A DNA stretch of 64,000 nucleotides from a virus (IMGVR_UViG_3300021255_002129); one strand, 5' to 3'. Numbered from the stretch's first letter, positions 1-64,000 are shown. Program-made: numbers and translations. Notes: generated from the sequence alone by a model not told the origin.

Positions 1-1
1 T

Positions 2-1303
2 ATTAATTGTAATATAGATGGAGAACAATTTAATTTTTATTCTCAAAATGGATTAAATGATTTAGTTGATAAGGCTGTAAAAGATAAAGAAATAATAAAT
101 AACAGATTTAATATGAATTTTACAGAAGGTAAAAATAAAATGGATATGGTATTAACATATACCTCTAATTATTCATTAACATTAATTCCTTATGTAAATA
201 CAGGTCTTACGGAAAAAGGACCTCATATAACTCAAGTTAAAACTATTATTACAAGAGAGTTTAATAAATTCTTTAGAGATAAAAAATGGTTAAAAGATAA
301 AGATGAAAATTTAACTGGAGATGATATTCAAGAGGGAATGTATATAGTGTTTAATATCACAGCCCCTAACATCGGATATGATGCTCAAGTTAAATCAACA
401 GTAACTAAAATAGATATGACACCATTTACTCAAACATTGGCAGATACTTTATCAGTATGGTTTAATAATAATGAAAAAGAAGTAAAAAATATATTTGATA
501 AAGCGGCAGCCGCTAGAAAAGCTAGAGAGGCAGCTAAAAATGCTCGTGAGAGAGTAAGAGAAACAAATAAGAAAAAAGAAAAAGCATTAAAATTTGATAG
601 TAAACTTGCAGATTGCTATTCAAAAGATAGAAGTAAATGTGAGATATATATTACAGAGGGAGATTCAGCAAGTGGAAACTTAAAGTCTGCTCGTAATAAT
701 GAATTTCAAGCAGTAATGCCTGTTCGTGGTAAAATACTTAATACTCAAAAAGCAAGTTTAGATAAGATACAAAAAAATGCAGAAATTATGACAATGATTG
801 ATGCTTTTGGATTATACATTGATACTAAAACTATGCAAGTTACTTATGATAAAGATAGTTTAAGATATGGCAAAATTATTATTGAATCTGATGCTGATGT
901 TGACGGAGCGCATATTAAAAACTTATTTTATACTTTTATATGGAATTTCTGCCCTCAATTAATTGAAGATGGATATATATATGCAGGAGTTCCACCACTA
1001 TATAAAGTAACAATAGGTAAAGAATATAAATATATTAAAAATGATGAAGAATTAGAAGAATTTAAAAAATCAATAGGTGACAAAAAAATAACTGTTAATC
1101 GTATGAAAGGTTTAGGTGAAATGTCCGTTGATGAAACTGAAGAAACATTAACTGATCCTGATAATAGAATAATTAAACAAATAACAGTTGAAGATGCGGC
1201 GGCCGCAAATAAATTGTTTAATGATTTAATGGGAACTGCTATTGTTGCTAGAAAGGATTTTATTAAAGAACATAGTAAGGAGGCTACATACAATGCAGAA
1301 TAG
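2..1303 (+). CDS. Type II topoisomerase (gyrase B / T4 gp39-like) large subunit, C-terminal TOPRIM part; 5' end lies upstream of the window
   Basis: Frame is open from position 2. TOPRIM motifs 'YITEGDSA', 'PVRGKILN' and 'ESDADVDGAHI' are present. No in-frame TGA. Confidence 0.85.
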   Translation: MNCNIDGEQFNFYSQNGLNDLVDKAVKDKEIINNRFNMNFTEGKNKMDMVLTYTSNYSLTLIPYVNTGLTEKGPHITQVKTIITREFNKFFRDKKWLKDKDENLTGDDIQEGMYIVFNITAPNIGYDAQVKSTVTKIDMTPFTQTLADTLSVWFNNNEKEVKNIFDKAAAARKAREAAKNARERVRETNKKKEKALKFDSKLADCYSKDRSKCEIYITEGDSASGNLKSARNNEFQAVMPVRGKILNTQKASLDKIQKNAEIMTMIDAFGLYIDTKTMQVTYDKDSLRYGKIIIESDADVDGAHIKNLFYTFIWNFCPQLIEDGYIYAGVPPLYKVTIGKEYKYIKNDEELEEFKKSIGDKKITVNRMKGLGEMSVDETEETLTDPDNRIIKQITVEDAAAANKLFNDLMGTAIVARKDFIKEHSKEATYNAE

Positions 1304-1419
1304 ATGTGTATATTTAAGACCTTTCTTATTTAATGCTTTAAAAAATTTTTTAAATATTGAAATGAATACAAATAAAATTAACTATTTAGGTTATATATTT
1401 ATAAAGGAGGCTACTTATA

Positions 1420-3759
1420 ATGCAGAATAATGATATTTTAAATGAATTAAGCACAAATTTTATTGAATATGCTGTTGCAGTTAATACAGACCGTGCAATT
1501 CCAGATGCAACAAGTGGTCTTAAACCTGTTCATAGAAGAATTTTATGGGGAGCATATGAAAAAGGTTATACTTTTAGTAAACCTCATGTAAAGTCAGCAA
1601 AAATTGTTGGAGATGTAATGGGTACATATCACCCACATGGAGATTCTTCAATATATGGTGCTCTTGTAAGATTGTCACAACCTTGGGTTATGAGATATCC
1701 TCTTATAGATTGGCACGGTTCAAATGGTAATATTGATGGCGATGGACCAGCTCATATGCGTTATACTGAAGCAAGACTTTCAAAACTTGCAGAAGATGGT
1801 ATGTTATTTGGAATAAAGAAAAGAAATGTAGATTTTATTCCTAACTATTCTGAAGATGCAGAAGAACCAGTTACATTACCTGCTATATTTCCTAATTTAT
1901 TATGTAATCCAAACACTGGTATTGGAGTTGCTATGGCTTGTAACTTTGCTCCACATAATTTAAAAGAAGTGGCTCAAGCTATTCATGATTATGTTGAAGG
2001 TAAAGAGCCTATGTTACCTGGGCCAGATTTTCCAACAGGTGGAATCATTATTAATATGAATGATATTCCTGCAATTATGAATACTGGGCATGGTGGCGTA
2101 AAAGTTAGAGCAAAATATAAAGTAGAAAAACAAAATTTAGTATTTTATGAAATTCCTTATGGAACATCTACTGAAGCATTAATTGCGGAAATAGGTAAAG
2201 TAGCAGAAGAAGAATTAAGTGAAATTACTAATATTAGAAATGAAAGTAATAAAAAAGGATTAAGAATTGTTATAGAGTGTAAAAAAGATGTTAATCCTGA
2301 TGCAATAGCAAATAAATTATTTGCAAAAACTAATTTACAAACAAGTTTTTCATATAATCAAGTTGCTTTAATAAATAAAACTCCAACAGAGGTTAATTTA
2401 AAAGATTGTATTAAAATATACCTAAATCATAATATTGAATGTTTAATAAAAGAGTGCGATTTTGATTTAAAGAAGGCGGAAGCCCGCCTAGAAATAGTAG
2501 AAGGTTTATTAAAAGCATTACAAGATATTGATACTATAATTACATTTATTAAAAAGTCTGCTAGTAGTGCTGCCGCAAAAGATGGATTAGTAAGTGATTT
2601 TGGATTTACTGAACCTCAAGCAAAATCTATCGTAGCTATGAGATTAGGTAGTTTAGCTAAACTTGAGGGTGTTGAACTTAATGATGAAAAAGCTAAATTA
2701 AATGAAACAATAGATGATTTAAATAGAATATTAGGTTCAGAAACTGAACAATTAAATGTTATTCTAGGTAGATTAGATGATTTAGTTAAAAAATATGGAG
2801 ATGCAAGAAGAACTGAACTAGCACAAATCGAAGTTCCAAAAGAAGAAAAAGAAATTGCAGAAGTTATTCCTGAAGATGTTGTTGTTATGCTATCACAAAC
2901 AGGAGACATTAAAAGAATACCTAAAGCTAGTTTTAGAACACAAAGAAAAGGCGGAAAAGGAGTTAAAACTGCAGACGATGCGGTAATGGCTACTATTAGA
3001 ACTAATACTATTGATGCTTTATTATTATTTACAAACAAAGGAAAAATGTATAGAATTATAGTAGATAATATACCTATTGGAACAAACGTATCAAAAGGTT
3101 CTAATGTATCAACATTAATTAATTTAGAAAATGATGAAAAAGTTATTGCTATAACTAATTTAGCAAGAGGAAATGAAAATAAATATGTCGTATTTATTAC
3201 AAAGAATGGTTTATTTAAGAAAACATCAATAGAAGAATATACTAAAACTAAAAGAAGTACAGGTATAGCCGCTATAAATCTTAAAGATGGAGATAGTATT
3301 GCTAATATAGAACTAATGAATGATGAAGATATGATTATAATAACTAAAAAAGGTTATTCAATTCATTTTGAAACTAAAGAGATTGCGGCAATCGGTAGAG
3401 TTACTGCTGGAGTTAAGGCGATTAAATTAGCAGATGATGATGAAGTATTAGTAGGTTTACCTATAAGAGATAAAAAAGAAACTATTGCAGTATTTAGTTC
3501 ATTTGGAAATGCTAAAAAAACTAGTATAGATGAATTCCCATTACAAGCTAGAGCTGGGAAAGGCGTGGTTGCTTATAAAGTTAGTCCAGCTACAGGAGAC
3601 GTAGTAGGAGCTACTATGATAAATAATGAAGATAATATCTTATTAGTAGGAAAAACTTCTATATGCGTTGCCGCAACAGATATACCTCAATTAGGTAGAG
3701 CTGCAACAGGAAATATAATGATTAAAAATAGTCAAATAAATTCAGTAACAAAATTATAG
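1420..3759 (+). CDS. Type II topoisomerase subunit A (GyrA/ParC-like)
   Basis: N-terminal 'AVNTDRAIPDATSGLKPVHRRILW' and 'HMRYTEARLS' (active-site Tyr region) match the GyrA signature. RBS AAAGGAGG lies upstream. No in-frame TGA. Confidence 0.9.
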   Translation: MQNNDILNELSTNFIEYAVAVNTDRAIPDATSGLKPVHRRILWGAYEKGYTFSKPHVKSAKIVGDVMGTYHPHGDSSIYGALVRLSQPWVMRYPLIDWHGSNGNIDGDGPAHMRYTEARLSKLAEDGMLFGIKKRNVDFIPNYSEDAEEPVTLPAIFPNLLCNPNTGIGVAMACNFAPHNLKEVAQAIHDYVEGKEPMLPGPDFPTGGIIINMNDIPAIMNTGHGGVKVRAKYKVEKQNLVFYEIPYGTSTEALIAEIGKVAEEELSEITNIRNESNKKGLRIVIECKKDVNPDAIANKLFAKTNLQTSFSYNQVALINKTPTEVNLKDCIKIYLNHNIECLIKECDFDLKKAEARLEIVEGLLKALQDIDTIITFIKKSASSAAAKDGLVSDFGFTEPQAKSIVAMRLGSLAKLEGVELNDEKAKLNETIDDLNRILGSETEQLNVILGRLDDLVKKYGDARRTELAQIEVPKEEKEIAEVIPEDVVVMLSQTGDIKRIPKASFRTQRKGGKGVKTADDAVMATIRTNTIDALLLFTNKGKMYRIIVDNIPIGTNVSKGSNVSTLINLENDEKVIAITNLARGNENKYVVFITKNGLFKKTSIEEYTKTKRSTGIAAINLKDGDSIANIELMNDEDMIIITKKGYSIHFETKEIAAIGRVTAGVKAIKLADDDEVLVGLPIRDKKETIAVFSSFGNAKKTSIDEFPLQARAGKGVVAYKVSPATGDVVGATMINNEDNILLVGKTSICVAATDIPQLGRAATGNIMIKNSQINSVTKL

Positions 3760-4972: not shown

Positions 4973-6928
4973 ATGGATCCAGATAAGATACATGAATATA
5001 AAATTCAAGAATTAGTTGATAAATTAAATTATTATACTAAACTATATGATGAAGGTCATCCCGCAATTAGTGATAAAGAATGGGATGATATGTATTTTGG
5101 ATTACAACAGTTAGAAAATTATTATGGTATTTATCTCCCAGACAGTCCAACTCAAAAAGTTAATTATCAAGTTGTAAATAAATTAAATAAAGTAAAGCAT
5201 AATCATCCTATGTTATCGCTTGATAAAACTAAATCAATAGATGCAATTAAATCTTTTTTAGGAAATAAAGATTTTATTTGTATGGCAAAAATGGACGGTC
5301 TGACTTGTTCTTTAAGATATTTAGATGGAAAATTAGTATCTGCGGAAACCCGCGGAAATGGTATTGAAGGAGAAGATATTTTTCATAATGCTTTACAAGT
5401 AAAAAATATTCCTAATAAAATTAACTATAAAGAAGAATTAATTATAGATGGAGAAATAATTTGTACTTATAATGATTTTAAAAATTTTGAAAAAGAATAT
5501 AAAAACCCTAGAAATTTTGCAAGTGGTAGTATAAGATTATTAGACAGTAAAGAAAGTTCTATGAGAAATCTTACTTTTATAACATGGGATATTATAAAAG
5601 GTCTAGATGAAGATAGATTAAGTAGCAAATTATTAAAGGCAGATGAATTAGGTTTTACTATTGTTCCTTTTGAAATTAATTTACCTGAATATGAAACAAT
5701 AGAGCAAATTATGGAGATAGTAAAAAAATCTAGCTCTATATATCCAATTGATGGACTTGTTTTTAAGTATGATAATTGTGATGAATATATTGCCGCAGGT
5801 AAAACCGACCATCATTTTAAGGGTGGATTGGCATATAAGTTTTATGATGAAGAATATGAAACTACTTTACAAAATATAGAATGGACTATGGGAAGAACTG
5901 GAGTACTAACTCCCGTAGCTATATTTGAACCTATTGATATAGATGGAACTGAAGTATCAAGAGCTAATTTATTTAATTTAAGTGTGGCTAGAGAGACTCT
6001 TCATGGTACTCAATACAGACTTGGTTGGAAAGGACAAAAAATAAATGTTTTTAAAGCTAATCAAATTATCCCTCAATTAAGTTGGTCAGAAGAAGATGAT
6101 GAGAAAACTAAAGAATATTTTTCTTATCCTGCAAGTTGCCCTATTTGCGGCTATTCAACAAAAATAAAAAAAGAAAATGATGTTGAAGTATTATTTTGCG
6201 ATAATGAACAATGTGAAGGTAAATTATTAAATAGAGTAGAACATTTCTTTAGTAAAAAAGGTTTAAATGCAAAGGGTTTATCAAAAGCAACAATAGAAAA
6301 ATTAATAGATTGGGGATGGATTAATGGAATCAAAGATGTATTCATACTTGATGCGTATGCAGAGGATTGGAAGAAAAAGGCAGGTTTTGGAGAAAAGTCT
6401 GTTAACAATATTATCACATCCATCAGAGAAAATAGTAATACTGACCTCGAATCCGTTATTAGTGCAGCAGGAATTCCACTTATTGGTAGAACAGTGGCTA
6501 GACAAATCGCAAGCATCTTCAATACATACGAGGATTTTAGAAAAGCAATCGGGAATTTTGATTTTTCAGAAATAGATGGCTTTGGATATGAAATGAATAA
6601 ATCATTAAAAAATTATAATTATGATGAATTAGATTATATTGTAGAAAATTTCTTAACTATAAATAATAAAATAGAAGAAAGGAAAGAACAAAAATTAGAA
6701 GGTTTAACTTTTTGTGTAACCGGAAAAATCAAACAATGGAAGAACAGAGATGAACTATCTAGTTTTATTACTTCACTAGGCGGAAAGGTAGTGGGTTCAG
6801 TTTCCGCAAATATGGATTATTTAATAAATAACGACATTAATTCAACATCAAGTAAAAATTTAAGAGCTAAAGAATTGGGCAAACAGATTATTGATGAGCA
6901 AACTTTCATGGATATGTTTGATTTATAA
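4973..6928 (+). CDS. ligA: NAD-dependent DNA ligase
   Basis: Adenylation motif 'MAKMDGL', OB/Zn-finger 'CPICG...C..C' and C-terminal BRCT ('LTFCVTGKI...') are all present. No TGA. Confidence 0.9.
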   Translation: MDPDKIHEYKIQELVDKLNYYTKLYDEGHPAISDKEWDDMYFGLQQLENYYGIYLPDSPTQKVNYQVVNKLNKVKHNHPMLSLDKTKSIDAIKSFLGNKDFICMAKMDGLTCSLRYLDGKLVSAETRGNGIEGEDIFHNALQVKNIPNKINYKEELIIDGEIICTYNDFKNFEKEYKNPRNFASGSIRLLDSKESSMRNLTFITWDIIKGLDEDRLSSKLLKADELGFTIVPFEINLPEYETIEQIMEIVKKSSSIYPIDGLVFKYDNCDEYIAAGKTDHHFKGGLAYKFYDEEYETTLQNIEWTMGRTGVLTPVAIFEPIDIDGTEVSRANLFNLSVARETLHGTQYRLGWKGQKINVFKANQIIPQLSWSEEDDEKTKEYFSYPASCPICGYSTKIKKENDVEVLFCDNEQCEGKLLNRVEHFFSKKGLNAKGLSKATIEKLIDWGWINGIKDVFILDAYAEDWKKKAGFGEKSVNNIITSIRENSNTDLESVISAAGIPLIGRTVARQIASIFNTYEDFRKAIGNFDFSEIDGFGYEMNKSLKNYNYDELDYIVENFLTINNKIEERKEQKLEGLTFCVTGKIKQWKNRDELSSFITSLGGKVVGSVSANMDYLINNDINSTSSKNLRAKELGKQIIDEQTFMDMFDL

Positions 6929-7567: not shown

Positions 7568-8500
7568 ATGTATTTTATAATATTTCTATTATTATGTATT
7601 TCTTGTTTACTATTTTATTTATATTACAAAGAAAAAAACAAAACAAGAGAAATAGATGAAATAAATGAAAATATTAAAAAAGAAAATGAAAAAATAGAAG
7701 ATGAAAATAAATACTTAAATGAGAAAAAAGATTTTATACAAAAAGAAATTGAAAATAAACAAAATATTTTAAATAAAGTTCAACAATCAATAGAAAGTTC
7801 GGAACAAGTATCCAGAAATGCGTTTGAAAATTATATGGATACTTTAGATAAAGAATACGAGTTAAAAGAAAAAGAATATTATGCGGCAATAGATTTATTA
7901 AACAAAAGTTATGGAGATATACAAAATAAAGTTAATGCGGAAATCGATCAAATCCGTATAGACCTAGATAAAATTTCTGCAACCCGCACCGCCGCAATTC
8001 AAGCACAATTAGAAGAAGAAAAAATACAACAACAAGCAGAATATTATTCTTTATCTATTGATGATGTAGATAAACGAGAAACAAAAATATTGCAATCTAT
8101 TGAAAATGAACTCCGTGATCCTAGGCCTATCCGCATGATTATATGACAAACATATTATTCTAAAAAAGCAAATGAACTTGCTGCAAGAGTATTAGGAACA
8201 GAGGAAAAATGCGGAATATATAAAATTACAAATAAAACAAATAAACTATGTTATATAGGACAAGCTAAAAAAATTAGAGAAAGATGGCGTGAACATATGA
8301 AATGCGGTCTTGGAATAGACACTCCCGCAAATAATAAATTATATCAAGCTATGTATAAAGAAGGAATTGATAACTTTACTTTTGAAATGCTTGAGGAGTG
8401 CGCTACCGCAGATTTAAATGAAAAAGAAGCCTTTTATATTAATTTATATAATTCATATGATTATGGATATAATTCTAATAAGGGAATTAGAAATTCCTAA
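7568..8500 (+). CDS. membrane-anchored coiled-coil protein with a C-terminal GIY-YIG / T5orf172-like nuclease domain (DUF4041-like architecture); contains one in-frame TGA (Trp) at 8144-8146
   Basis: N-terminal TM 'MYFIIFLLLCISCLLFYLYY' is followed by a long coiled coil. The in-frame TGA is followed by 'GIYKITNKTNKLCYIGQAKKIRERWREH', a GIY-YIG/T5orf172 motif. Track ORFs 7568..8146 and 8297..8500 are in the same frame. Confidence 0.55.
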
Positions 8501-49976: not shown

Positions 49977-50393
49977 ATCATCTTTAACTTCCCAAGTAAT
50001 GACTTCAGTGTCTGAACTAATATTTGCTAAATCTACAACTCCTTGAATTGCTTTCTTTCCTTGTGCCACAATAGTTGCAGTGACTACACCTAATACTGCA
50101 ACACTTGATAATGTATTAAGTAATTCGCTTGATAATAATATTACTCCAAATGCACTTGTAATCATTTTATTAATAAATGGTAACATAGTAAATGCAACAG
50201 CAACAAACACTGAGCATACATAAAACGCTAATATTTTTGTAATACCTTTAATCATTTTCTTTCCATTAAAAGTTTCTTTTCCTGACCAAATATTAATTAA
50301 TGTTCCAGTTACAATATTAACAATAGCAAGAATAGCTAATGCAATACCTAACCATCCCATTATTTGTAAAGTTTTTAAAATTGCTTCTACCAT
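49968..50393 (-). CDS. holin (multi-TM)
   Basis: 141 aa with three or four predicted TM helices and a charged C-terminus, located next to the endolysin. Confidence 0.6.
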   Translation of the reverse strand: MVEAILKTLQIMGWLGIALAILAIVNIVTGTLINIWSGKETFNGKKMIKGITKILAFYVCSVFVAVAFTMLPFINKMITSAFGVILLSSELLNTLSSVAVLGVVTATIVAQGKKAIQGVVDLANISSDTEVITWEVKDDEE

Positions 50394-50767
50394 AATATCA
50401 TGCGGCGGTCGTCGGTCTTAGAACTTTTAGTCTTGCTCTTACGCATGCCTGATCGGCTCCCGCGCCTCCTTTCCTTATTGTTTCCGCACTCTCCACCTTT
50501 AGTGCAATTATAACCAAAAAGTGGAATATTACTTTTGTAATAACCTATTAAATATTTTTCTAACCTAACAGCTTGCTCTTGTGTCAATCCACTAGATATT
50601 ACAATGTGTTTAATGTTTTTTCAGCCATATTTTTTAATAGGTTTATAGACTAACTGGCCTTTATAGCCTCGCCCATTTTTCCATCTAGACTCAGGTTTTT
50701 GGCCAGTTAATCCAATATATCGTTTCCCATTAGGGAAAATTAATTCATATACACAATAATTATGCAT
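50387..50767 (-). CDS. GIY-YIG homing-endonuclease-like protein inserted between endolysin and holin; at least one in-frame TGA
   Basis: 'VYELIFPNGKRYIGLTGQKPESRWKNGRGY' is a GIY-YIG motif and '...LEKYLIGYYKS...FGYNCTKGG' is I-TevI-like. The ATG overlaps the endolysin TAA, and the TAG stop overlaps the holin start. The C-terminal basic tail is encoded by an anomalously GC-rich patch (~50400-50480). Confidence 0.55.
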
Positions 50768-54190: not shown

Positions 54191-54327
54191 AAAGCGCGTC
54201 TCCTTTCATTCTTTTAAATTAAAACTAATGTATAATAAAATTATATATACTATAATTCATTCTTTCTAATTCTATTTAAATATTGATTAAAATAAATGAG
54301 TTGTTTTTGTCCAACCAATGTTTAAAC

Positions 54328-54370
54328 AAAATAAAAAAGACTGCGGCAATCACAGTCTTTTTTATTTTTA
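54328..54370. terminator. bidirectional-looking rho-independent terminator
   Basis: AAGACTG-CGGCAATCA-CAGTCTT with an A-tract 5' and a T-tract 3'. Confidence 0.5.
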
Positions 54371-54392
54371 TATACTTTATTTCAATAGTAAA

Positions 54393-54870
54393 ATTATCTC
54401 TTGCTAAATGCCCATCTTTCTATAACTATATTTACAGCCTCATATAGCGACTTTCTAACACATCTAAAGGAATTTATATTAGCTATATTAGAAAGTGTTG
54501 TAAAAGGGCTATGATTATCTATTGTACTATTCAAATGGTCTAAAACATCATTACAATTTTTATCTACAACAGAACTATCTGCAATTAAGTAGTTCTTATT
54601 ATCATAAAATACATGATATGCTCTAACTTTTATTTTACTTTTAGTTTTTTCTGGATTAGATAATCTAAAAGCTTGTCCACCTTGTGGGTAGCAGCAACTA
54701 TTATATTTCCCTGTACTAAATCATTTACATATTCAAGTCCAGTTTCTAAATCTAAATAGTATGTTCCATTATCTTCTTTATGAATTTTAAGCTTCAGTCG
54801 GAATTATTATTTTATCTCCATTTGATGAAAACAACTTGTCTGTTGAATTAAATAATTTAATCTTAAATTA
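54393..54870 (-). pseudogene. disrupted small gene downstream of the M14 fibre gene (possible fibre-assembly chaperone remnant or -1 frameshift site)
   Basis: Two protein-like minus-strand frames abut at an A6 run (~54640-54660) and there is no clean start (ATG-GAG-ATA-AAA-TAA-TAA). The downstream frame ends with '...VNIVIERWAFSKR*'. Confidence 0.3.
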
Positions 54871-54888
54871 AATAGTTTAAATATAAAA

Positions 54889-57066
54889 TTAGTCAATAAC
54901 ACTAACTTCATTAAATTTATAATCATTCTCACAAATATACTTATTCTTTATAATAACATTTTCAAGTAATGAAACAACTGTTGTTATTGCAATTTTCCTC
55001 ATGTCATCTCTACTTCCTGTATAATCATCACCAGACGTTGTAGCAAGTTCAATTAAAAAACCATGCAAATTCATAACACCACTATACCATTCATCAAAAG
55101 AACCATGAAACTCACCAGTTTTCTTTAAAGTAAAGCAATTTTGGTTATTTGTATATTCTGTTTTTAACCAATCAAAATTAGAACGCATTTGTGAATTTAA
55201 GGCTTTAATGGTAGAATAACCAATATCCAAATCTGATTTAAAGCCACTTGCAAAATATCCAATAACACCACCAGCAGTCAAAGAAGCTGTTGAATGTCTA
55301 TTAATAACTAAGAATATTTTATCTTTGTTGTTACGAATATAGTCACATAATATTTGAGTTTCAATTTCACTTTCAGGATATTGTCCTGAAGAATTGTATT
55401 CATTATCACTATATACCCAATTTGCATTGAAATTTCTATTAATATTCACATTATTTCCATTATTTCTTATATGGTGTTCATAACCATATGGGTTTATTGT
55501 TGGTATTACTTCAAATATGACATTATCAAATAAATTCTTTAAAGCATCATTTGTACCATAATTGTCCAATATGTCTTTAAACATCATATAGTCATCTAAT
55601 GCAATAGTTTCTTCATTACCATGCATTGAACCAACATATAGAATTGTTAATTTTTGTTTTGGTATCTGTTGTAATGCTATATTTTCATTGTGTGAATTAA
55701 TAGTGTATTTTCTTATTTCTAGGTTATCTGTAGTAGTCCCAAGAACTGTTTTAGTAATAAATGATGAATAAGTATTTAGTAACCCATCCCATAAATCATA
55801 TAATGTTGATAATTTATTTGTAGTATAATATGGAACAATTGCCTGATTAAAATTATATTTAGAAAATTGAGAGCAAATTTCTATAATTTTACTTATATTA
55901 TTATTTTCAGGATTAATTATATATTTATCATAGTATAAATTTAATGTCATATGATTTAATGCATTATTTACTCTTTTGGCATTAAAATTTTCAGATGATG
56001 AACCATCATCGATTGAAAATCTAATATAACAATCTTGATTAATGATGAATTTATCTATTCCATATGTTCTATAATCTATTAAATACGATGAATCTTTATC
56101 ACTAAAAGTACAAATATTAAATTGAACATTGCCATCACTACTAATTGATGAACCTTTTAACACTTTAATATAATCAATTGTTCTAAAACGTGATGGGAAT
56201 GTATTATTAATTCCTGTTGATGAAATTTGACCCTGTTCAAAATTTGAATATGATAAATTATGTTTATTATACAAATTATCATTAATATTTTGTATTCTGT
56301 TCTCTATGTCTGTATTTTTTGATTCTTCTAATAAATTTAATGTTATATGAGATAAAGCTGAGTCTACTCTTTCTTCATTAAATGTTTCAGATGAGCTACC
56401 ATCATTAATTGAAAATCTAATATAACAGTTTTGAGAAACAATGTAAATGTTTGTTGAAAATGTTCTATACTCTAACAAAGAGCTTGTATTTTTATCACTA
56501 AAAGTACAAATATTAAATTGAACATTGCCATCTGTTTCAATAGAAGTTCCTTTAAGCACTTTAATATAATCTTTAGTTCTAAATCGTGATGGAAATGTTG
56601 TGTTTATTCCAGAAGAACTTATTTGACCTTGTTCAAATTTTGAATATGATAAATTATACTTATTATACGAATTATCAATAATATTTTGTATTTTTTTATC
56701 GTCTTCATTTAATCTTTCATTAATTTCTTCATAATCGCTACTTGCTTGATAAAGTCCACCATCTACCCAAGTTGTACCATTGTAATAATACCAATGACCA
56801 TCAATAGTTAAAACATAAACTCTTGTTGTATCAGTCATTTTACTTATTGAATTTGCTACTAATGGGCTTCCACTTGCTAAGCTATTTATTTGATTTTGTA
56901 AACTATTGATACTAGAATTAACATTTATAACATTAGCTTTATTATTTAATTCATTAGTCAATGTATTTCCATTAACATCGACATGGTCACTATCAACAGC
57001 TAATGGAATACTATCACTATATGAACCATCTTTATTTTCTAATTTAACATATTTTAATTTATCCAT
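54889..57066 (-). CDS. tail fibre with internal duplicated domain and C-terminal M14 zinc-carboxypeptidase-like domain
   Basis: Shared N-terminal anchor 'MDKLKYVKLENKDGSYSDSIPL'. Two ~120-aa repeats are ~70% identical ('NLSYSKFEQGQISSSGINTTFPSRFRT...' and 'NLSYSNFEQGQISSTGINNTFPSRFRT...'). M14 motifs 'SMHGNEET' (HxxE), 'NPYG', 'NRNF' and 'INRHS' are present. Confidence 0.7.
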   Translation of the reverse strand: MDKLKYVKLENKDGSYSDSIPLAVDSDHVDVNGNTLTNELNNKANVINVNSSINSLQNQINSLASGSPLVANSISKMTDTTRVYVLTIDGHWYYYNGTTWVDGGLYQASSDYEEINERLNEDDKKIQNIIDNSYNKYNLSYSKFEQGQISSSGINTTFPSRFRTKDYIKVLKGTSIETDGNVQFNICTFSDKNTSSLLEYRTFSTNIYIVSQNCYIRFSINDGSSSETFNEERVDSALSHITLNLLEESKNTDIENRIQNINDNLYNKHNLSYSNFEQGQISSTGINNTFPSRFRTIDYIKVLKGSSISSDGNVQFNICTFSDKDSSYLIDYRTYGIDKFIINQDCYIRFSIDDGSSSENFNAKRVNNALNHMTLNLYYDKYIINPENNNISKIIEICSQFSKYNFNQAIVPYYTTNKLSTLYDLWDGLLNTYSSFITKTVLGTTTDNLEIRKYTINSHNENIALQQIPKQKLTILYVGSMHGNEETIALDDYMMFKDILDNYGTNDALKNLFDNVIFEVIPTINPYGYEHHIRNNGNNVNINRNFNANWVYSDNEYNSSGQYPESEIETQILCDYIRNNKDKIFLVINRHSTASLTAGGVIGYFASGFKSDLDIGYSTIKALNSQMRSNFDWLKTEYTNNQNCFTLKKTGEFHGSFDEWYSGVMNLHGFLIELATTSGDDYTGSRDDMRKIAITTVVSLLENVIIKNKYICENDYKFNEVSVID

Positions 57067-57121
57067 TAAAATCTTCTCTCCTTTCTTAAGATTGAGATTA
57101 TATATCTCATTTCTAAATCTA

Positions 57122-57163
57122 TATCAAAAGAAGGGACAAATAATTATCTTATTTTGTCCCTTC
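57122..57163 (-). terminator. rho-independent terminator (minus strand)
   Basis: Perfect 11-bp stem GAAGGGACAAA/TTTGTCCCTTC flanked by an A/T tract. Confidence 0.6.
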
Positions 57164-57406
57164 TTCATTAATACTTGCGGCAACCGACTCTTCGGTTTTA
57201 GAATTAGATTCTTCATTTGTTTGGCTAGCTTTCAATTCTTTTTTAGCCATTTCTGCACGTTCTATATCTTCTTTTTTACAAAATTCAAAATATTGTTGTT
57301 CAATTTCTGTCATTATACTTTTCATAATAAAATATATTGCATCTATTGATATTCCACTTTCATTTAAATCCTGTACAATTTTTTGTTCTAAATCTCTAAA
57401 TATCAT
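57149..57406 (-). CDS. hypothetical protein (85 aa)
   Basis: RBS AAAGGAGTAAAAAG, then ATG. True TAA stop. Confidence 0.45.
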   Translation of the reverse strand: MIFRDLEQKIVQDLNESGISIDAIYFIMKSIMTEIEQQYFEFCKKEDIERAEMAKKELKASQTNEESNSKTEESVAASINEEGTK

Positions 57407-57425: not shown

Positions 57426-60400
57426 CTAATAATCTTTAACCGCAACAAGAATTCCATTTGTAAAACGTAATCCAATAACACTATTATCTGTTTTTCTAAT
57501 AATAATTTCATTTGTTGCTTGGCCAGTCTCTCCAGAAGAAGTATGTAAATTTCCAATATTATACAATCCATTTCCATTCATTTGAATAGCTCCTCTAACA
57601 TTTAAACCAGATACTTTTGGATGATTAGTTTCTATTCCCATTTCAAGATAATATTCTCCCTTATGAATACTAATACTTCCACCTGTAATAGTAGCTCCTC
57701 CAACAGTACCTCCATTAATACTAGAACCACTAATATTTCCACTAAACTGTCCATTACTAGCATGAAGAGTTCCATTACTTTCAATTCTAAAACGAGTACC
57801 ATAATTAATTAAATCAGCAGTCCCTTGTGACCATCCACCATTATCTATTCTAATATTTTTAAAGTGGGCGTTTCCTGCTGCATTAATCTCTCAATTTGGT
57901 CCTTTAAGAGTTCCATTTGCAGAGATATGTGTATTTCCATTATTGCTTTGTAATTCAGTTCCATTAATAGTTCATCCACCTATTTGACCGCTAGACGAAT
58001 ATAAAGCCCCATCTTTATCAACAGCAAATTTATTGTTAATAGCTAAATTTAAGTTATCTCTATTAGTTCCATTAATAGTTCTACTAAATAATCCATTATT
58101 ACTTGAAAATCTAATATTTGCAGAACTACTTTTTGTTCCCGTATAAATTGAATCATCATCAATATTAAACCCAGCTAAAGTACCTCCGCCTTTTGCAGTT
58201 AGATGTCCATCTTTATCAACTTTAAAATTACCATTTCCTCATTCAATTAATGGCGTAGTTAAATCAATTAACATTCCTTGATTATTTTTATTTCCAACGC
58301 CATAATTTAAAGGTTTTCCACTATCATCATAATTTTTTCAATAAGCGCTACTATATAACATAGCTTTTTCTGCGGCGGGGTCTAAAATAATTTGACCTGG
58401 GCCATGTTTACCAAATATTGCAGATCCATCTTCTGCATTTAAGAACATTGTACGTTCACCAAAATTATATCCAAACATACCAATATCTTTTTTATTTTTA
58501 CCAGCTTCTTTAACACTACCCATTAACATACCAGTAAAACTATTATCTGCTTCTTTTTGACCTGCACCAACTTGTGGAGCTAATATAACTCCATTACCAT
58601 TTTTATCTATGCTAACACTATTACCATCTCATCCGTTAATAGCTGCATTTCCATATTTATTTAATAATAAATGAATTGGTATATGAATTCTAGCAACTTC
58701 ATTTGCACTCTTATCTATTATGATACATTCAAGAGCATTAGTTACACACTCACCATCAAAATCATCTATTGGTTTATATGATTTTGTATTCCTTGCTGCG
58801 GGAATATCACCTCTTGAATATTCTTTTAAGAATTCTTTATTTATCCAACTTCTATTAACTGAGTCATATATTCTTCCTCGAATATTCCAATCATAATTAA
58901 CTCCATTAGTTTTAGTTAATACGCTGATATCTTCAGTGATATTATTTATTACTTTCGTTACTTTTAATTCAAAAGGCTTTGAATTATCATATTGCGGCTT
59001 GCGGCCATCTGCACTATAAGTCGCATATCTAAATCCTGTGTCTTCAACTAATGAAACTCCATATCCGCTTACCGCAGTTGCAGTTATAACAGGCATTGTA
59101 GCATAATATTCAATATTATCATAAGTAATTATAACTTTAACAATATTAGCAGGTGAATTAACACCTTTATATCCGCTATAACTAAATGTTCCATTATCTG
59201 TAACACCTAAACTAGTTTCATCATAAACATTGCTTGTGTATTTATTTTGTAAAATAGTTCATTTAACATTTGCAGTTTTTCCTTCAGTAGTATTACCACT
59301 TGAACTACCATCAAATATTTTTTCTCCACTATGCCATAATTGAGCATTAAACCATTTATTATTTTGTCTTGGAGTATAATTAATATTTCCATTTAATATC
59401 ATTGGATATCCAAAACCAGTGTTTTGAGTATTAGGAACTATTTTACATACGAATTCAGTTCCATTAGTTCCTGGTTCTCCTTCTTTAACAAAAGTAAAAT
59501 CAGTTTCCGCAACTAAATTCATATCTTTATAATCAACCGTTAATTTAATTTTATTATTGTTCTTTTTAATATCATACTTATCTCTAATTGTATATTGAAG
59601 ATACATTTCTCCTTCAACTGTTTTATAATCATCTTGAACAATCCAATCATAGCTATCAGGAACTTTTAGCATCGTATCTTCAAGAGGAACTGTTCAACTA
59701 AACTTACATTTATCTATAATATCATCTGCTAAAGCATTACCTAAATTATCATAAACTGTAAAACTTAATGGTAATATAACTTGAGGATTATCTAAACTAT
59801 CACTTACAGGTGATATACCAGCCTCATCGTATTTAAAAGTTTGTGTTCCATTATTTATAATTAAAGTATAAGCATCTTTTTTATCTAAATCATTTCTAAT
59901 AACAATAGAAGCAGTTCCAATATATATTCCATTGTGGTAAACTGAACATTTATAAGTACTAAAATTAGTTATTGTATTCACTTGTAAATGATGTATTTTT
60001 CTACCTTCTACTCTCATTATTTTATCATATCTATTTATAATTGTCAAGTATTGATTTAATTGTCCTTGACTTGCTGCGGCCATAGCTCTTTCTGCAGCAA
60101 TGTCAGCTTTAAGTTGCGTATAACCGACAACTGCATTGTTATATTCTGTATTATCTTCAGTGGTTTCCGTCAAAGCATAGAAATTATTATTATTATCTAT
60201 TTCAACTCATTGATAAGTATATTCATTACTAGTTGACTCTTGACCATTAATTTTACAAGTTAATGTAGGATTTCCAATATCATAATAGAATTGTTCGCCC
60301 TTATCGCTTTCAATACTAATCTCATAATTAGATGAATAATTAGTAACAGTAATAACCCTACTTAATTGAATATTATTATAAATAACAACACATTTATATT

Positions 60401-61559
60401 TAGTTTCTTTTGCTTCGCTATCGCTTTTCTTTACAATATATTTAAAATCTGCGGGAATCCATTCTACTACAGGTGCAGTTCCAGCAGATGCGTTTTTAAT
60501 TACGTTCTTTTGATTTAAACATTTCCATCCTTGTCCGCCATAAGCATTAAAATCTTCACTTAAACTAGTTACACCATTGTTTTCAACAAACCAATAATAT
60601 GGTAATCTTTGACTATCAGGATTAATATATTTACCTTTAACTCTTACTTGTGCCATTAATGTTCTAGTTGCACTAGGTAAATCATTTTCATCAAAATAAA
60701 CTCCTTGTGGAGTAACAAAACTTAAACTACATGACTCTAGGTCTACTGCACTTAAAGCCTGACTTCCGCATATTTCAAAATCTTTAATAAATATATCATT
60801 AAGTTTTGTTTCATCTTGATTTGGAAAATCATAACAGAATAGAGATATTTTATTTATATATTGAAAATTAACACCATCTATATCAAATATTCCAACTTGT
60901 CTTTTGAAATTAGGTATTTTATATGGATTACCTTCGAATTGATTAACATCAAGAGCATAATTTCTAGTAACTAATTCTTCACTAGCATTATCTTTAAAAA
61001 CCATTTCATATAAAATTCCGTAGTTTCCTCTAAATTGTTGTTCAGTAGGTAAGCTAGTTTTTATTGTAGCTGCTAAAAGTATTGATGTAGATGACTTTAT
61101 ATATTCGTTTATACTTTTTAGGTTAAGTCTTAAATTATTAGCAGAACTGCTATTTCTATCATATATTACATATTCATTAGTAGTTTTATATGAACATAAT
61201 TCATATTGGTTATTACTTTCTACACAGTTATTACCAATTATTTCAAAAGCCTCTTCACCTTCTGCGGCAACCGCATAATTCTTTCCTAATCGACTTACCG
61301 CACCTAGAATAGTTTTATCCCTACTCATATCATTATTAGGAATTAAAACATAGACTTCAGAGCCATTCATATAACTGATTTCAGAACTACCTGAATATGC
61401 ATAAAAATTACTATCTTGATATTGGACTTTGTATTTACCAATAGTTGGGTCTTCACAGTTAATAATCTTAGCTTGAACTGTCTTATCATATCCAGCATTT
61501 TTAACTCTTTGGTTTACAATAGTTTCAATAGCATCAAGTATTTGGTTTTCATATTTCAC
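57426..61559 (-). CDS. giant tail-tip structural protein (~1377 aa) with a C-terminal Gly/Asn-rich fibre-like repeat region; at least five in-frame TGA
   Basis: Six track ORFs (60207..61559, 59694..60173, 59259..59672, 58629..59096, 58338..58529, 57426..57641) share one frame and are each separated by a TGA. The gaps were translated by hand without TAA/TAG. Start is 'MKYENQILDAIE' after AAGGAG; stop is TAG at 57426. Confidence 0.5.
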
Positions 61560-61599: not shown

Positions 61600-61640
61600 C
61601 TTCAATATTCTATTAGAAATATTATTTATATTTACCCAAA
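61600..61640 (-). promoter_or_regulatory. candidate late promoter element (minus strand GGGTAAATATAAATAAT) directly after the tape-measure terminator
   Basis: TATAAATA-like element in a conserved context that recurs at 52030-52060 and 38345-38370. Confidence 0.3.
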
Positions 61641-61673
61641 ATAAAAAAGAAGGTAACCTTCCGATTACCTTCT
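61638..61673 (-). terminator. rho-independent terminator overlapping the tape-measure stop codon
   Basis: GAAGGTAA...TTACCTTC hairpin with a flanking A/T tract. Confidence 0.5.
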
Positions 61674-64000
61674 GTTAGCTCTCATACTAGCCATATTAAC
61701 TAAGTTGTTTAGAGCTTCTTCTATTTCTCTTGAGTCTTTTACGTTAGGGAATTGAGCATCAATGTGAACATTTTGTTCTAATACATCTCCACCAACTTCA
61801 GTACCTAATCCTCCTGCGGTTGCCGCAGCAAGTTTTCCTAACACTGAACTTCCTAACATATTAGTTATATTTCTCATAATACTAATAGCATTTAACATAT
61901 TAGCAGTATCTTCTTTATTTAATACTAATTCCTTTTGATGTAATAGAGCTAGGCGACCATCACTTCCCCATTCGCCTGTGTATCCACCAGTATCATATCC
62001 AGATAATTGAGATTTCTTAACCCATCCAAGGTCTCTATATCTACCATCTGCACTATGAATATGAATACCATAAGGATTATTAGTAATTCTATCAACTACT
62101 ATACCATTAGCAACTCCTGAATATTTACTTCCAGTTGGACTAGAACCATAAGAGTCATAATAGTATCTACCAGAATATGTTGCGGTTTCACCTACAACTA
62201 AATTATTGTCTCCACCTAGTGCGGAACCTCCTCCAGCACCAGAGCCAGATGAGTCACTTCCTGAACCTGAACTTCCACTTCCAGATCCAGAACCTCCATT
62301 AGCATTACCGGCTGCTGCAGCAGCTTGTCTTTGTTGTTCTGACCAATATTCATAAGCAGCTTTAGTAGCAGCGATTGCCGCATCCTTAGCAGCATTATAT
62401 TTATTAACCAAATCATCAAGCTGAGCTATAACATTACCAATAGCAGTTAATTCTTGTTCATAACTATTGATTAATTCAGTATTATCACTAATTAATTGTT
62501 GAGTTCTATTGATATTTTCATCAATGCCTTCTCCAATACTTTCAAAATCAATTCTACCAGTATTTTCTAATTCATCTAATCCATCTTCATAATCTTTAGT
62601 TGCATCATGAAGTTGATCAAAGGCGTCTTTACATACTCCTAAGAATCCACCCTCCCCAGCAAACACATCAGTCATATGTTGAACTCCAGATTCCCAATAA
62701 GGTAATAAATCGCCCATTAATACATCTTTTTCTTCATCAGACATATTTTGGAAATTTGCAACATCTATATCATATAATCTAGATAAATCATTAAAAGCTG
62801 ACTCATGTAAATTATTTCTAACAGTTGTATTTTGTTCAGTTAAACCATTTATTAATTGTTCATATTGATTTTGTAATAATAGTTCTCTTTCACTTCTTGC
62901 AACTGGGTCATTGATTTGAGCGGCTTCAGCCATTTTTTCTTGGAATTCAACTCAAACGTCATACATTTGATTTAAGTTATCTTGATATCTTGCTTTATCA
63001 AAGTTATAAAGTGAATTATACATATCATTTAATTCGTCTTGTAATTGACCAATTTGGTCTCCATCCGCAGTATATTCATATCTATAATTACCTTGACTAT
63101 CTCTTCTTAATCTCATTTTAGATTTATTTTGTTGAGCTTCTTGAAGAGCAATTTGTTTTAAAGCAATTTCATATTTTTTATTAGCTCTTTCAATATCATA
63201 TTCAGTTAATTTATCTCTTTCACGTAAATCCGCAAGTTCTTCATCCATAATCTTTTTAAGTTGTCTTTGTGCGGAAATACTATCAGTTTGGTCTAAAGCA
63301 TCTAAATATTTACCTTCAAGTTTTTGAACTTCATATAATGAATTAATTGTATCTAAATATTGGTCTGCATTTTTATTAATTAAATTCCATTCTTCTTCAA
63401 TATATTCAAGTCCTAAATTATCAGTAATTTTATTATTTAAGTTTTGGAATATTAAATTAATTGCATTTAAATATTTATCTTGAAGATTTTGAATTGATTC
63501 TTCAATTAAATCATTCATTGATTGAACTGCATCAGCTCATTTTTCTCTTGCGTTTTCTCATTCATCAGAACCCTCTTCTAAAGTATCTAACTGTTGTCTC
63601 CAGAAATCCGCTTGTTGTCTTTGAAAATCTAATTGACTATTAAAGTTTTGTTGTTGTTTATCATAATATTTAGCTAATTGACTATAAGATTGTTCTCCAT
63701 ATACTAATGATATTACTTCCATATCATGTTCGATTAAATCACTAATCATTTCATATGCTTCAATTTGTTCATCAAATTTCTCTTGAGCCTCATCCATCAT
63801 ATCTATATAAGATTCATGAATTTCTTTTTGAAGTTCAAGCACGTCTGTAAGATTAGACATTAATTCTTCATAATATTTCTTTAAGTCATCTAATGCAGCA
63901 GTTCTATTATCACCATAAACATTAGACCAACCATTAGTATCCATTTGATTTAATTCAGCTAATGTATTATCTACTTGTTTTCTTAATGCTTGAACTATAC
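61665..64000 (-). CDS. tail tape-measure protein, C-terminal ~780 aa (5' end beyond window); at least two in-frame TGA
   Basis: Track ORFs 63558..63944, 62952..63518 and 61665..62933 share a frame and are bounded by TGA. Extensive coiled coil, a Gly/Ser linker 'GSGSGSGSSGSGSDSSGSGAGGG', and a true TAA stop at 61665. Confidence 0.6.

What the first reader, a model, noticed from the sequence alone, without database searches (positions are those of the whole stretch)
1..64000. Bimodal use of TGA: it encodes Trp in late and accessory genes but is absent from the large replication genes, pointing to a stop-codon-recoded phage of a cell-walled host
Seen in sequence: the NrdG radical-SAM protein has the conserved 'CxxxCxxC...HNPETW' tryptophan encoded by TGA, plus two further TGA codons. 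The RecJ-like DHH protein, the ThyX-like protein, the RuvC-like resolvase, the Stealth protein and three glycosyltransferases, and essentially every structural gene on the minus strand are continuous only if TGA is read through. Several structural ORFs of 680-1380 codons contain five or more TGA each and no TAA/TAG. By contrast gyrase, ligase, DnaB-like helicase, primase, Dda-like helicase, Pol III alpha (1318 aa), NrdD (749 aa), deformylase, dUTPase and the flotillin-like gene contain no TGA at all and encode all Trp as TGG. Established knowledge: a uniformly code-4 AT-rich genome would use TGA as the dominant Trp codon everywhere. The window also encodes a CHAP + 2xSH3b endolysin, which targets peptidoglycan, so the host has a cell wall, unlike Mollicutes. 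This partition resembles the stop-codon-recoded phages reported in metagenomes, where early genes are standard-code compatible and late/lytic genes are recoded. Here nrdG sits directly after TGA-free nrdD in the same operon, which suggests translational timing or licensing through TGA suppression.
Basis: partly seen in the sequence, partly recalled or inferred. Interest (0 to 1): 0.9.

Follow-up and report, generated by a model that had tools for sequence, protein, structure and literature searches.

The report
Rumen phage reading TGA as tryptophan
This is the middle of a ~136-kb sheep-rumen phage that reads the stop codon TGA as tryptophan in about 40% of its genes but keeps its replication genes TGA-free. 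This kind of recoding has been described in gut phages since 2021-22, so the case is a clear example rather than a new phenomenon.

Summary
The core observation holds. With TGA read as sense, 62 genes cover 93% of the window. They contain 70 in-frame TGA and 161 TGG codons. Per-gene heterogeneity is far beyond chance (p<5e-5). TGA means Trp. At 37 TGA sites, relatives carry TGG or TGA in 67 of 102 aligned codons, mostly Tyr or Phe otherwise, and never Gly. TGA also aligns with conserved Trp in PFL-activase and GNPTAB Stealth structures. Pol III alpha, gyrase, ligase, DnaB, the Dda-like helicase and NrdD are TGA-free. The Stealth/GT/RuvC block is 86% TGA, which is about the neutral expectation.

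Only 9 of 23 minus-strand genes contain TGA. Holin and CHAP endolysin have none. The SH3b and ThyX calls were not confirmed.

The phage belongs to a large SPbeta-like/phAss-1-like family with code-11, code-4 and code-15 members. It matches the TGA-recoded "Agate" phages of Borges et al.

No tRNA lies in the 81.5 kb of the source contig I could read. A relative that is 92-97% identical carries 24 tRNAs, a tmRNA and a UCA-anticodon tRNA. That tRNA has an unusual second hairpin displaying the Trp anticodon loop, and 35 contigs carry it. This appears undescribed.

Verdict: a new member of a known kind.

The parts
1..3759 (+). GyrB (C-terminal part, to 1303) and GyrA (1420-3759). 0 TGA, 6 TGG.
   Evidence: Pfam. 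Codon counts.
4973..6928 (+). NAD-dependent DNA ligase. 0 TGA, 9 TGG.
7568..8500 (+). GIY-YIG homing-endonuclease-like gene. 1 TGA, 1 TGG.
12283..14970 (+). 0 TGA, 12 TGG. Also TGA-free in code-4 relatives (0/19).
15402..17222 (+). RecJ-like DHH exonuclease. 2 TGA (codons 104 and 583), 5 TGG. Relatives mostly have TGG at both sites.
17546..18739 (+). SF1 (Dda/UvrD-like) helicase. 0 TGA, 6 TGG.
19067..19880 (+). Two small genes of unknown function. 3 TGA/0 TGG and 1 TGA/1 TGG.
19931..23887 (+). DNA polymerase III alpha (YorL-like), 1318 aa. 0 TGA, 19 TGG. 0 TGA among 58 Trp codons in four code-4 relatives.
24000..26249 (+). NrdD anaerobic ribonucleotide reductase. 0 TGA, 5 TGG. 74% nucleotide identity to Thomasclavelia phages TR-TP1/2.
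26242..26748 (+). NrdG activase, overlapping the nrdD stop by 8 nt. 3 TGA (codons 40, 48, 50), 2 TGG. Codon 40 aligns with the Trp of PFL-activating enzyme (CHNRDTW).
27457..31261 (+).
31295..32743 (+). SPFH/flotillin-like protein, 482 aa, with no Trp codon of either kind.
32824..36762 (+). TGA-saturated block: Stealth (5 TGA/1 TGG), GT2 (7/1), GT2 (5/1), GT1 (3/1), RuvC-like (4/0). Together 24 TGA against 4 TGG (0.86). Stealth TGA codons 68 and 85 align with the conserved Trp of GNPTAB CR2 (PWV, PSWL).
36805..43789 (-). Thirteen mostly small virion or unknown genes. Only two contain TGA (38390-38704 and 41797-43071, one each). The strand switch and the GC-skew sign change lie at ~36.8 kb.
43809..49024 (-). 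Two large tail/baseplate proteins: 685 aa (6 TGA/3 TGG) and 1052 aa (8 TGA/8 TGG).
49056..49505 (-). 149-aa transmembrane protein next to the lysis genes. 1 TGA at codon 33. Weak Pfam hit to ATP-synthase B chain, the same annotation Borges et al. give for the recoded Agate lysis-cassette protein.
49968..51945 (-). Holin (49968-50393, 0 TGA/3 TGG), GIY-YIG homing endonuclease (50387-50767, 1 TGA/2 TGG) and CHAP endolysin (50767-51945, 0 TGA/8 TGG).
52379..57216 (-). Pectate-lyase-like tailspike (603 aa, 0 TGA) and a 775-aa tail protein with an M14 zinc carboxypeptidase domain (1 TGA/6 TGG).
57426..61370 (-). 1314-aa tail protein. 8 TGA, 9 TGG. 5 of the 6 TGA sites that could be aligned carry a Trp codon in a relative (TGG at four, TGA at one).
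61665..64000 (-). C-terminal part of the tape-measure protein. The full ORF is 2625 aa with 11 TGA and runs off the window. In 17 code-4 relatives 95 of 146 Trp codons are TGA.

Best explanation
The window is the central 64 kb of a ~136-kb SPbeta-like / phAss-1-like (probably 'Agate'-type) siphovirus from sheep rumen.

The phage uses TGA as a tryptophan codon in 24 of 62 genes. Its host is most likely a standard-code, peptidoglycan-bearing member of the Bacillota.

Decoding is most likely done by a phage-encoded, tRNA-Trp-derived tRNA with a UCA anticodon. This tRNA sits in a cluster of about 24 tRNAs roughly 10-20 kb to the left of the window.

Strong A+T mutation pressure pushes TGG towards TGA; A-ending codons make up 87-95% of comparable two-codon sets. 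Purifying selection keeps TGA out of two kinds of gene. The first kind must be translated before or without the suppressor: replisome, gyrase, ligase, NrdD. The second kind is needed in large amounts or at a precise time: tail tube, holin, endolysin.

Genes without that constraint have drifted part or all of the way to the neutral TGA share. These are glycosyltransferases, the resolvase-like gene, homing endonucleases, NrdG, large low-copy tail proteins and the tape measure.

The consequence is that recoded genes cannot give full-length protein until suppressor activity builds up.

Shown: the code, the partition and its conservation in relatives. Inferred: the host's code, the presence of the suppressor in this very genome, and any timing role.
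For: - TGA = Trp. At 37 window TGA sites, 102 aligned codons in relatives are TGG 52, TGA 15, Tyr 14, Phe 6 and no Gly. TGG sites show the same profile.
- TGA aligns with Trp in PFL-AE 3c8f and in GNPTAB 7s6n.
- A code-11 relative (L015) has TGG at four GT2 TGA sites.
- Coding density is 0.80 under code 11 and 0.93 under code 4.
- The partition is non-random. It recurs in code-4 relatives: Pol III alpha 0/58, DnaB 0/7, tape measure 95/146, RuvC-like 3/4.
- The TGA share is 0.14 in the replication block, 0.33 in the structural block and 0.86 in the GT block. The A-ending share in K/E/Q/L/R pairs is 0.87-0.97.
- The family mixes codes. Of the 80 best tube-protein loci, 21 look code 4, 24 code 11 and 35 code 15.
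- TGA is a rare stop (8 of 140) in code-11 relatives.
- Cultured relatives infect walled, standard-code Firmicutes (PMC10607447).
- The relative L184/L185 is 92-97% identical in nucleotides over 11.5 kb. It carries a UCA tRNA next to tRNA-Trp(CCA).
- The same pattern is published for Agate phages.
Against: - No tRNA or other Rfam hit occurs in the 81.5 kb of the source contig I could read. The suppressor is seen only in relatives.
- The host is not identified. The MAG labels (Bacilli, Erysipelotrichaceae, Clostridia) come from binning of phage-sized contigs, and the host's code was not examined.
- Holin and endolysin are TGA-free, which weakens the published 'lysis-gene' version of the timing model for this phage.
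- NrdD carries TGA in some relatives (3/16), so the nrdD/nrdG contrast is not strictly conserved.
- There are no expression data.
Confidence: 0.8

Rival explanations
1. No regulatory role. The partition is only a mutation-selection balance. Suppression of TGA is inefficient because it competes with RF2, so each TGA costs yield. TGA therefore accumulates under A+T pressure only in genes whose product is needed in small amounts, whenever they are expressed.
For: - High-copy or dose-critical late genes are TGA-free: tail tube, endolysin and holin.
- Low-copy tail proteins, the tape measure, glycosyltransferases and homing endonucleases are rich in TGA.
- 14 of 23 late-strand genes lack TGA.
Against: - It does not by itself explain why low-copy enzymes such as Pol III alpha (0/19, and 0/58 in relatives), gyrase, ligase and helicases are completely TGA-free while RecJ, NrdG and RuvC-like are not.
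- A need for translation before the suppressor is active explains that better.
- The two models are not mutually exclusive.
Confidence: 0.35
2. The host itself uses code 4 (a Mollicutes-like member of the Bacilli). The phage simply shares its host's code, and TGA-free genes are recent imports from standard-code phages.
For: - GC is 28.6%.
- Related contigs are binned with MAGs labelled 'Bacilli bacterium'.
- The GT block has a Mycoplasma-like TGA share of 0.86.
- The tandem UCA/CCA tRNA-Trp arrangement recalls Mycoplasma capricolum (own knowledge).
Against: - Overall only 30% of Trp codons are TGA, and 14% in the replication block, against about 90% expected.
- Only 39% of genes contain TGA. 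Borges et al. report about 90% for phages that match their host's code.
- The TGA-free state of Pol III alpha and DnaB is conserved in code-4 relatives, so it is not a recent import.
- Sister phages use code 11 or code 15.
- The CHAP endolysin and M14 peptidase imply peptidoglycan, which known code-4 Mycoplasmatales lack.
- Cultured relatives infect standard-code Firmicutes.
Confidence: 0.07
3. TGA is a true stop (or Gly, or Sec). On this view the 'interrupted' ORFs are pseudogenes, split genes or read-through products.
For: - Standard gene callers split these genes (ENA calls).
- ARAGORN labels the UCA tRNA 'SeC'.
Against: - Homology runs across the TGA sites, with Trp or aromatic residues opposite them and no Gly.
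- TAA/TAG-free frames of 685-1314 codons cannot arise by chance.
- TGA and TGG swap at the same sites among relatives.
- The UCA tRNA has a tRNA-Trp acceptor stem and G73, and scores as an ordinary tRNA rather than tRNA-Sec in Rfam.
Confidence: 0.02

Closest known systems
TGA-recoded 'Agate' phages and the general model of Borges et al. (bioRxiv 10.1101/2021.08.26.457843; Nat Microbiol 2022)
   Same: - Genomes of ~127-154 kb from cattle and other animal guts, with low GC.
- TGA read as Trp.
- Replication machinery in standard code; structural genes, homing endonucleases and a lysis-cassette TM protein ('ATP synthase B chain'-like) recoded.
- Very close standard-code and TAG-recoded relatives, and few TGA stops in those relatives.
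- Two oppositely oriented gene blocks with a GC-skew switch.
   Different: - Clade membership could not be tested, because no Agate sequence was available here.
- In this phage holin and endolysin carry no TGA.
- The strongest recoding is in a glycosyltransferase/resolvase block on the 'early' strand, which Borges et al. do not mention.
[quoted passage not shown]
   Same: - ~136 kb genomes with 28-36 tRNAs including suppressors.
- 28% of ORFs recoded, mostly virion genes.
- Tail tube 52% identical to phAss-1.
- Pol III alpha 39% identical to Enterococcus phages.
   Different: phAss-1 recodes TAG to Gln with ordinary CUA tRNAs and comes from the human gut. This phage recodes TGA to Trp and comes from the rumen.
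Bacillus phage SPbeta
   Same: Shares the YomU tail tube, YomV, YorF, YorH and YorL (Pol III alpha) protein families, and a genome of ~135 kb.
   Different: SPbeta uses the standard code. As far as I know it has no tRNA cluster. Protein identity is only about 30-40%.
[quoted passage not shown]
   Same: A phage tRNA-Trp(UCA) that inserts Trp at UGA. This was shown experimentally for the Jade-derived pairs.
   Different: No TrpRS or release factor was found among the ~45 window proteins scanned. In this family the UCA tRNA carries an extra hairpin with a CCA loop instead.
Code 4 of Mycoplasmatales/Entomoplasmatales and their phages
   Same: TGA = Trp, low GC, and tandem tRNA-Trp(UCA)/(CCA) genes (own knowledge).
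   Different: In those organisms TGA is the dominant Trp codon genome-wide and the hosts lack peptidoglycan. Here TGA is a minority codon, is absent from core replication genes, and the phage carries cell-wall hydrolases.

Membership tests
Stop-codon-recoded (code 4) phage of a standard-code host | In-frame TGA in conserved genes at positions where homologs have Trp | tested here: met
   67 of 102 aligned codons are TGG or TGA, none is Gly, and TGA aligns with Trp in the PDB homologs 3c8f and 7s6n.
Stop-codon-recoded (code 4) phage of a standard-code host | Coding density and gene lengths are restored by code 4 but not by code 11 or code 15 | tested here: met
   coverage 0.80 (code 11), 0.85 (TAG read through), 0.93 (code 4). 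The 62 genes cover 59.4 of 64 kb.
Stop-codon-recoded (code 4) phage of a standard-code host | Only part of the genes are recoded, and early/replication genes are compatible with the standard code | tested here: met
   24 of 62 genes contain TGA and the heterogeneity has p<5e-5; the same split is seen in relatives.
Stop-codon-recoded (code 4) phage of a standard-code host | Phage-encoded suppressor tRNA (UCA) | tested here: inconclusive
   Absent from the 81.5 kb of the source contig that could be read. Present in a relative that is 92-97% identical and in 34 further related contigs.
Stop-codon-recoded (code 4) phage of a standard-code host | The host uses the standard code | not testable with these tools
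   The evidence is indirect only: mixed codes among close relatives, Firmicute hosts of cultured relatives and MAG bin labels.
Agate clade (Borges et al.) | Placement within the Agate clade on the large-terminase tree (>=95% bootstrap) | not testable with these tools
   Agate genomes are not in the collections searched. The endolysin and tube searches of the phage collection found no named Agate record.
Agate clade (Borges et al.) | Genome of ~127-154 kb; TGA recoding of structural genes, homing endonucleases and the lysis-cassette TM protein; standard-code replication genes | tested here: met
   136,410-bp contig. TM protein with an ATP-synthase-B-like hit and 1 TGA. GIY-YIG genes with TGA. 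Replication genes TGA-free. Compared with the text read.
SPbeta-like / phAss-1-like phage group | Shared structural and replication protein families | tested here: met
   Pfam YomU_Tube, YomV_2nd, YorF and Phage_SPbeta_YorH. Pol III alpha 39% identical over 99% of its length to SPbeta and Enterococcus phages. Tube 52% identical to phAss-1.
Code 25 (TGA = Gly) phages of Absconditabacteria/Gracilibacteria | TGA aligns with Gly, and about 90% of genes are recoded | tested here: not met
   0 of 102 aligned codons are GGN. 39% of genes are recoded.

The most novel reading that the evidence does not exclude
The most novel reading concerns the suppressor tRNA of this phage family, not the window itself.

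The family decodes TGA with a 95-98-nt tRNA-Trp derivative that has two anticodon-type hairpins. The hairpin in the normal anticodon position reads UGA with a UCA anticodon. A second hairpin sits in the variable-arm position. Its stem co-varies freely, but its loop is always N-U-CCA-A-A, which is the tRNA-Trp anticodon loop.

The proposal is that the second hairpin presents the CCA identity element to the host tryptophanyl-tRNA synthetase. Charging identity would then be uncoupled from decoding, and no phage synthetase would be needed.

I found no description of such a tRNA.

That this very phage carries the tRNA is inferred from a relative that is 92-97% identical.
Probability: 0.3. Interest if true: 0.85.

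Novelty: new member of a known kind. Interest (0 to 1): 0.45.

Why it matters

It also sharpens the published picture in two ways:
- The partition is not simply 'early versus late/lysis'. Holin, endolysin and tail tube avoid TGA, while glycosyltransferases, a resolvase-like gene and homing endonucleases are saturated.
- The TGA share can be compared with a neutral expectation of about 0.9. That comparison shows which genes are under selection against TGA.

The larger potential value lies outside the window. The family's UCA tRNA carries a conserved extra hairpin with the Trp anticodon loop. This bears directly on an open question stated by Borges et al.: how are suppressor tRNAs charged when the phage has no synthetase? 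A tRNA of this design could also be useful for genetic-code expansion.

Tried and rejected
- Reaching the source contig's own tRNA region failed. Window-end proteins give only +/-10 kb, and one look-up failed because the ORF was partial. A protein search with the gene next to the relative's suppressor returned clusters from other samples only.
- Walking along IMG/VR relatives from the tube protein, the terminase and a 126-aa paralog family found no suppressor in those regions. The suppressor turned up only on walking leftwards from gyrase.
- Rfam found nothing in the window or its flanks.
- PHROGs added almost no function for the virion genes.
- ThyX and SH3b could not be confirmed.
- The PDB search for the RuvC-like protein gave only a spurious hit.
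- The covariance-model alignment (A3) mixed in ordinary tRNAs, so I did not use it for pair counts. I parsed the 35 top hits directly instead.
- Rejected readings: TGA = Gly (code 25), selenocysteine, pseudogenes or split genes, and a uniformly code-4 host.


Full report
WHAT IS IN THE WINDOW.

The window has 28.6% GC and no tRNA gene.

If only TAA and TAG are treated as stops, 62 genes appear. Genes on the plus strand run from 1 to 36,762 and genes on the minus strand from 36,805 to 64,000. The GC skew changes sign at the switch. These genes add up to 59,376 bp, or 93% of the window.

ORF coverage is 0.80 under the standard code, 0.85 if TAG is read through and 0.93 if TGA is read through.

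All 62 genes end in TAA (47) or TAG (15). In frame there are 70 TGA and 161 TGG codons. In-frame TGA is ten times rarer than off-frame TGA (3.6 against 36 per 1000), and in-frame TAA/TAG are absent. Frames of 685, 1052 and 1314 codons free of TAA/TAG have chance probabilities of 1e-27 to 1e-53. So the TGA-containing frames are real genes.

TGA MEANS TRYPTOPHAN.

I aligned all window proteins to 100+ related loci and read the codon opposite each window TGA. At 37 sites there were 102 aligned codons: TGG 52, TGA 15, Tyr 14, Phe 6, scattered others, and no glycine codon. Window TGG sites show the same profile, with 484 of 600 being Trp codons.

With TGA masked as X, three independent checks agree:
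- NrdG codon 40 aligns with the Trp of CHNRDTW in pyruvate formate-lyase activating enzyme.
- Stealth codons 68 and 85 align with the two conserved Trp residues of human GlcNAc-1-phosphotransferase (PWV, PSWL).
- A GT2 TGA after DSDD aligns with Phe.

A standard-code relative (L015) has TGG at four TGA sites of the second GT2. Code 25, selenocysteine and pseudogenes are therefore excluded.

THE PARTITION.

Heterogeneity of TGA/TGG among genes is far beyond chance: G=133.5 against 56.9+/-9.4 in permutations, p<5e-5.

- The replication and nucleotide-metabolism block (34 genes) has 16 TGA against 97 TGG (0.14).
- These genes have zero TGA: GyrB/A, ligase, DnaB, the next 364-aa gene, the SF1 helicase, Pol III alpha (19 TGG), NrdD and deformylase.
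- The Stealth-GT2-GT2-GT1-RuvC-like block has 24 TGA against 4 TGG (0.86).
- The minus-strand virion/lysis block has 30 against 60 (0.33).

A-ending codons make up 0.87-0.97 of the Lys, Glu, Gln, Leu(TTR) and Arg(AGR) pairs in all three blocks. The neutral expectation for a fully synonymous TGA is therefore about 0.9. Only the glycosyltransferase block has reached it, and TGA is selected against elsewhere.

The pattern recurs in code-4 relatives: Pol III alpha 0/58, DnaB 0/7, RecJ 5/13, NrdG 5/14, RuvC-like 3/4, tape measure 95/146.

- Only 9 of 23 minus-strand genes contain TGA.
- The holin (Pfam Phage_holin_4_1), the CHAP endolysin (8 TGG) and the pectate-lyase-like tailspike have none. Neither does the tail tube just beyond the window.
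- dUTPase and the flotillin-like gene contain no Trp codon at all.
- Pfam sees CHAP but no SH3b.
- 'ThyX-like' has no support, and RuvC is only a weak hit.

WHAT THE PHAGE IS.

The window lies on a 136,410-bp scaffold from a sheep-rumen metagenome. The flanks show YomU tail tube, YomV, YorF and YorH families, a 2625-aa tape measure with 11 TGA, and an RNA ligase, RNase H and GyrB.

Pol III alpha is 39% identical to that of SPbeta and of ~140-kb Enterococcus phages. nrdD is 74% identical in DNA to Thomasclavelia phages. The tube protein is 52% identical to that of the TAG-recoded human-gut phage phAss-1 (PMC10607447).

IMG/VR holds 246 relatives of the tube protein. Of the best 80 loci, about 21 read as code 4, 24 as code 11 and 35 as code 15. 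In nine clearly code-11 loci, TGA ends only 8 of 140 genes.

Related phage-sized contigs are binned with MAGs labelled Bacilli, Erysipelotrichaceae or Clostridia.

All of this matches Borges et al. [quoted passage not shown] In those phages the replication genes stay standard, while structural genes, a homing endonuclease and an 'ATP synthase B chain'-like lysis-cassette membrane protein are recoded. The window has that membrane protein (49056-49505, 1 TGA) and recoded GIY-YIG genes. I could not test clade membership by terminase phylogeny.

THE SUPPRESSOR.

No tRNA or other Rfam family occurs in the 81.5 kb of the source contig that I could read.

Walking leftwards from gyrase in IMG/VR reached contig 3300037400_002591. 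It is 92-97% identical to the source over 11.5 kb. It carries 24 tRNAs and a tmRNA that scores 76.6 bits in Rfam.

Among the tRNAs is a 96-nt tRNA with a UCA anticodon, 5 nt upstream of tRNA-Trp(CCA). The Rfam tRNA model scores it at 60.4 bits. That alignment puts the UCA hairpin in the anticodon-arm position and treats 23 extra nucleotides as an insert in the variable region.

The insert is a second hairpin whose loop is CUCCAAA, the Trp anticodon loop. A search that fixed both loops found 6 viral and 26 metagenome contigs. A second search fixed only the D arm and the UCA arm and found 16 viral contigs. Every one of them has the second hairpin.

Across 35 contigs there are 19 distinct sequences, 8 acceptor stems (all fully paired, all followed by G73) and 11 different second-hairpin stems (all paired). 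The second loop is always N-U-CCA-A-A. On the ten closest variants, 100% of cells pair, with compensatory changes in the acceptor stem, the UCA stem and the second hairpin. In that set the loops were fixed by the search pattern. In the second search they were not.

All seven of these contigs for which I also hold virion or lysis-region loci show a code-4 signal.

The position predicted for this tRNA in the source scaffold falls just past its end, so its presence in this genome is an inference. I found no paper describing such a tRNA. Borges et al. explicitly leave open how suppressors are charged without a phage synthetase.

HOW IT MOST LIKELY WORKS.

- Shown: the phage's genes require TGA = Trp; the TGA-free set is conserved; the family carries UCA tRNAs.
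- Inferred: the host is a standard-code, walled Firmicute; early genes are translated by the unmodified host; the phage tRNA cluster then supplies a UGA reader; only then do recoded genes give full-length products.

nrdG overlaps the stop of TGA-free nrdD by 8 nt and has its first TGA at codon 40. Under the standard code only a 39-residue stub would be made.

Whether the partition serves timing, or merely reflects the yield cost of each TGA, cannot be settled from sequence. The TGA-free tube, holin and endolysin favour a yield or precision component. The TGA-free low-copy replisome favours a timing component.

VERDICT.

This is a new member of a known kind. The most interesting lead is the two-hairpin UCA tRNA of the family, which lies outside the window.

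Noticed in passing
L185:13106-13201 (relative IMGVR_UViG_3300037400_002591); also L186-L231: A 95-98-nt tRNA-Trp-like gene with a UCA anticodon arm plus a second hairpin in the variable-arm position. The second hairpin's loop is always N-U-CCA-A-A. It has 19 distinct sequences in 35 contigs, with 11 co-varying second-hairpin stems and 8 acceptor stems. In several contigs hairpin 1 equals the anticodon arm of a neighbouring tRNA-Trp(CCA) with C34 changed to U, which suggests origin by unequal recombination between tandem tRNA-Trp genes.
   Followed up: partly
L185:8517-8939: The near-identical relative encodes a full-length tmRNA (Rfam RF00023, 76.6 bits; ARAGORN tag GNLFSKITNKVKSLFAFNCVAFA) inside the tRNA cluster. 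A phage tmRNA could deal with ribosomes that read through host TGA stops. This was not tested.
   Followed up: partly
L189:138-214 and 1856-1951; L190:2161-2256 and 3898-3974: Two relatives carry both a UCA and a CUA suppressor tRNA. The CUA tRNAs are ordinary 77-nt tRNAs without the extra hairpin.
   Followed up: no
L072-L118, L033, L038: Many family members are TAG-recoded. For example, coverage rises from 0.45 to 0.96 when TAG is read through. Others are standard-code, so all three codes occur within one family of ~120-145-kb phages.
   Followed up: partly
window 32824-36762: The glycosyltransferase/RuvC-like block has twice the Trp density of the rest (21 against 11 per 1000 codons) and a TGA share of 0.86. 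Homologs of a GT2 and the GT1 sit next to the endolysin in some relatives (L015, L016, L019, L020), so the block is mobile within the family.
   Followed up: partly
window 24000-26249: nrdD is 74% identical at DNA level to Thomasclavelia ramosa phages TR-TP1/TR-TP2, far closer than any other gene is to a cultured phage. This suggests gene exchange and hints at an Erysipelotrichales-type host.
   Followed up: no
L184:615-1304 and 7024-7800; window 7568-8500 and 50387-50767: Homing endonucleases (GIY-YIG, HNH) are among the most recoded genes, with 6 TGA/0 TGG and 4/0 in the relative. Borges et al. reported the same for Agate phages.
   Followed up: no
L026:112-495; L150:10001-16615; L162; L160; L176: A family of ~120-130-aa paralogs with the motif HE(I/L)ELL..K(N/S)S occurs in several copies. 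They lie in oppositely oriented small-gene blocks between the terminase region and the tRNA/gyrase region. Function unknown.
   Followed up: no
window 8561-9199, 27457-27900, 31295-32743: The phage encodes a ClpP-like protease, a peptide deformylase and a 482-aa SPFH/flotillin-like protein. The flotillin-like protein has no tryptophan at all.
   Followed up: no
L222:11311-11401: A 91-nt sequence scores 59 bits with the two-hairpin tRNA model. It falls between the true members (>=83 bits) and the neighbouring tRNA-Trp(CCA) genes, the next-best hits (47-59 bits). It may be another long-arm tRNA.
   Followed up: no
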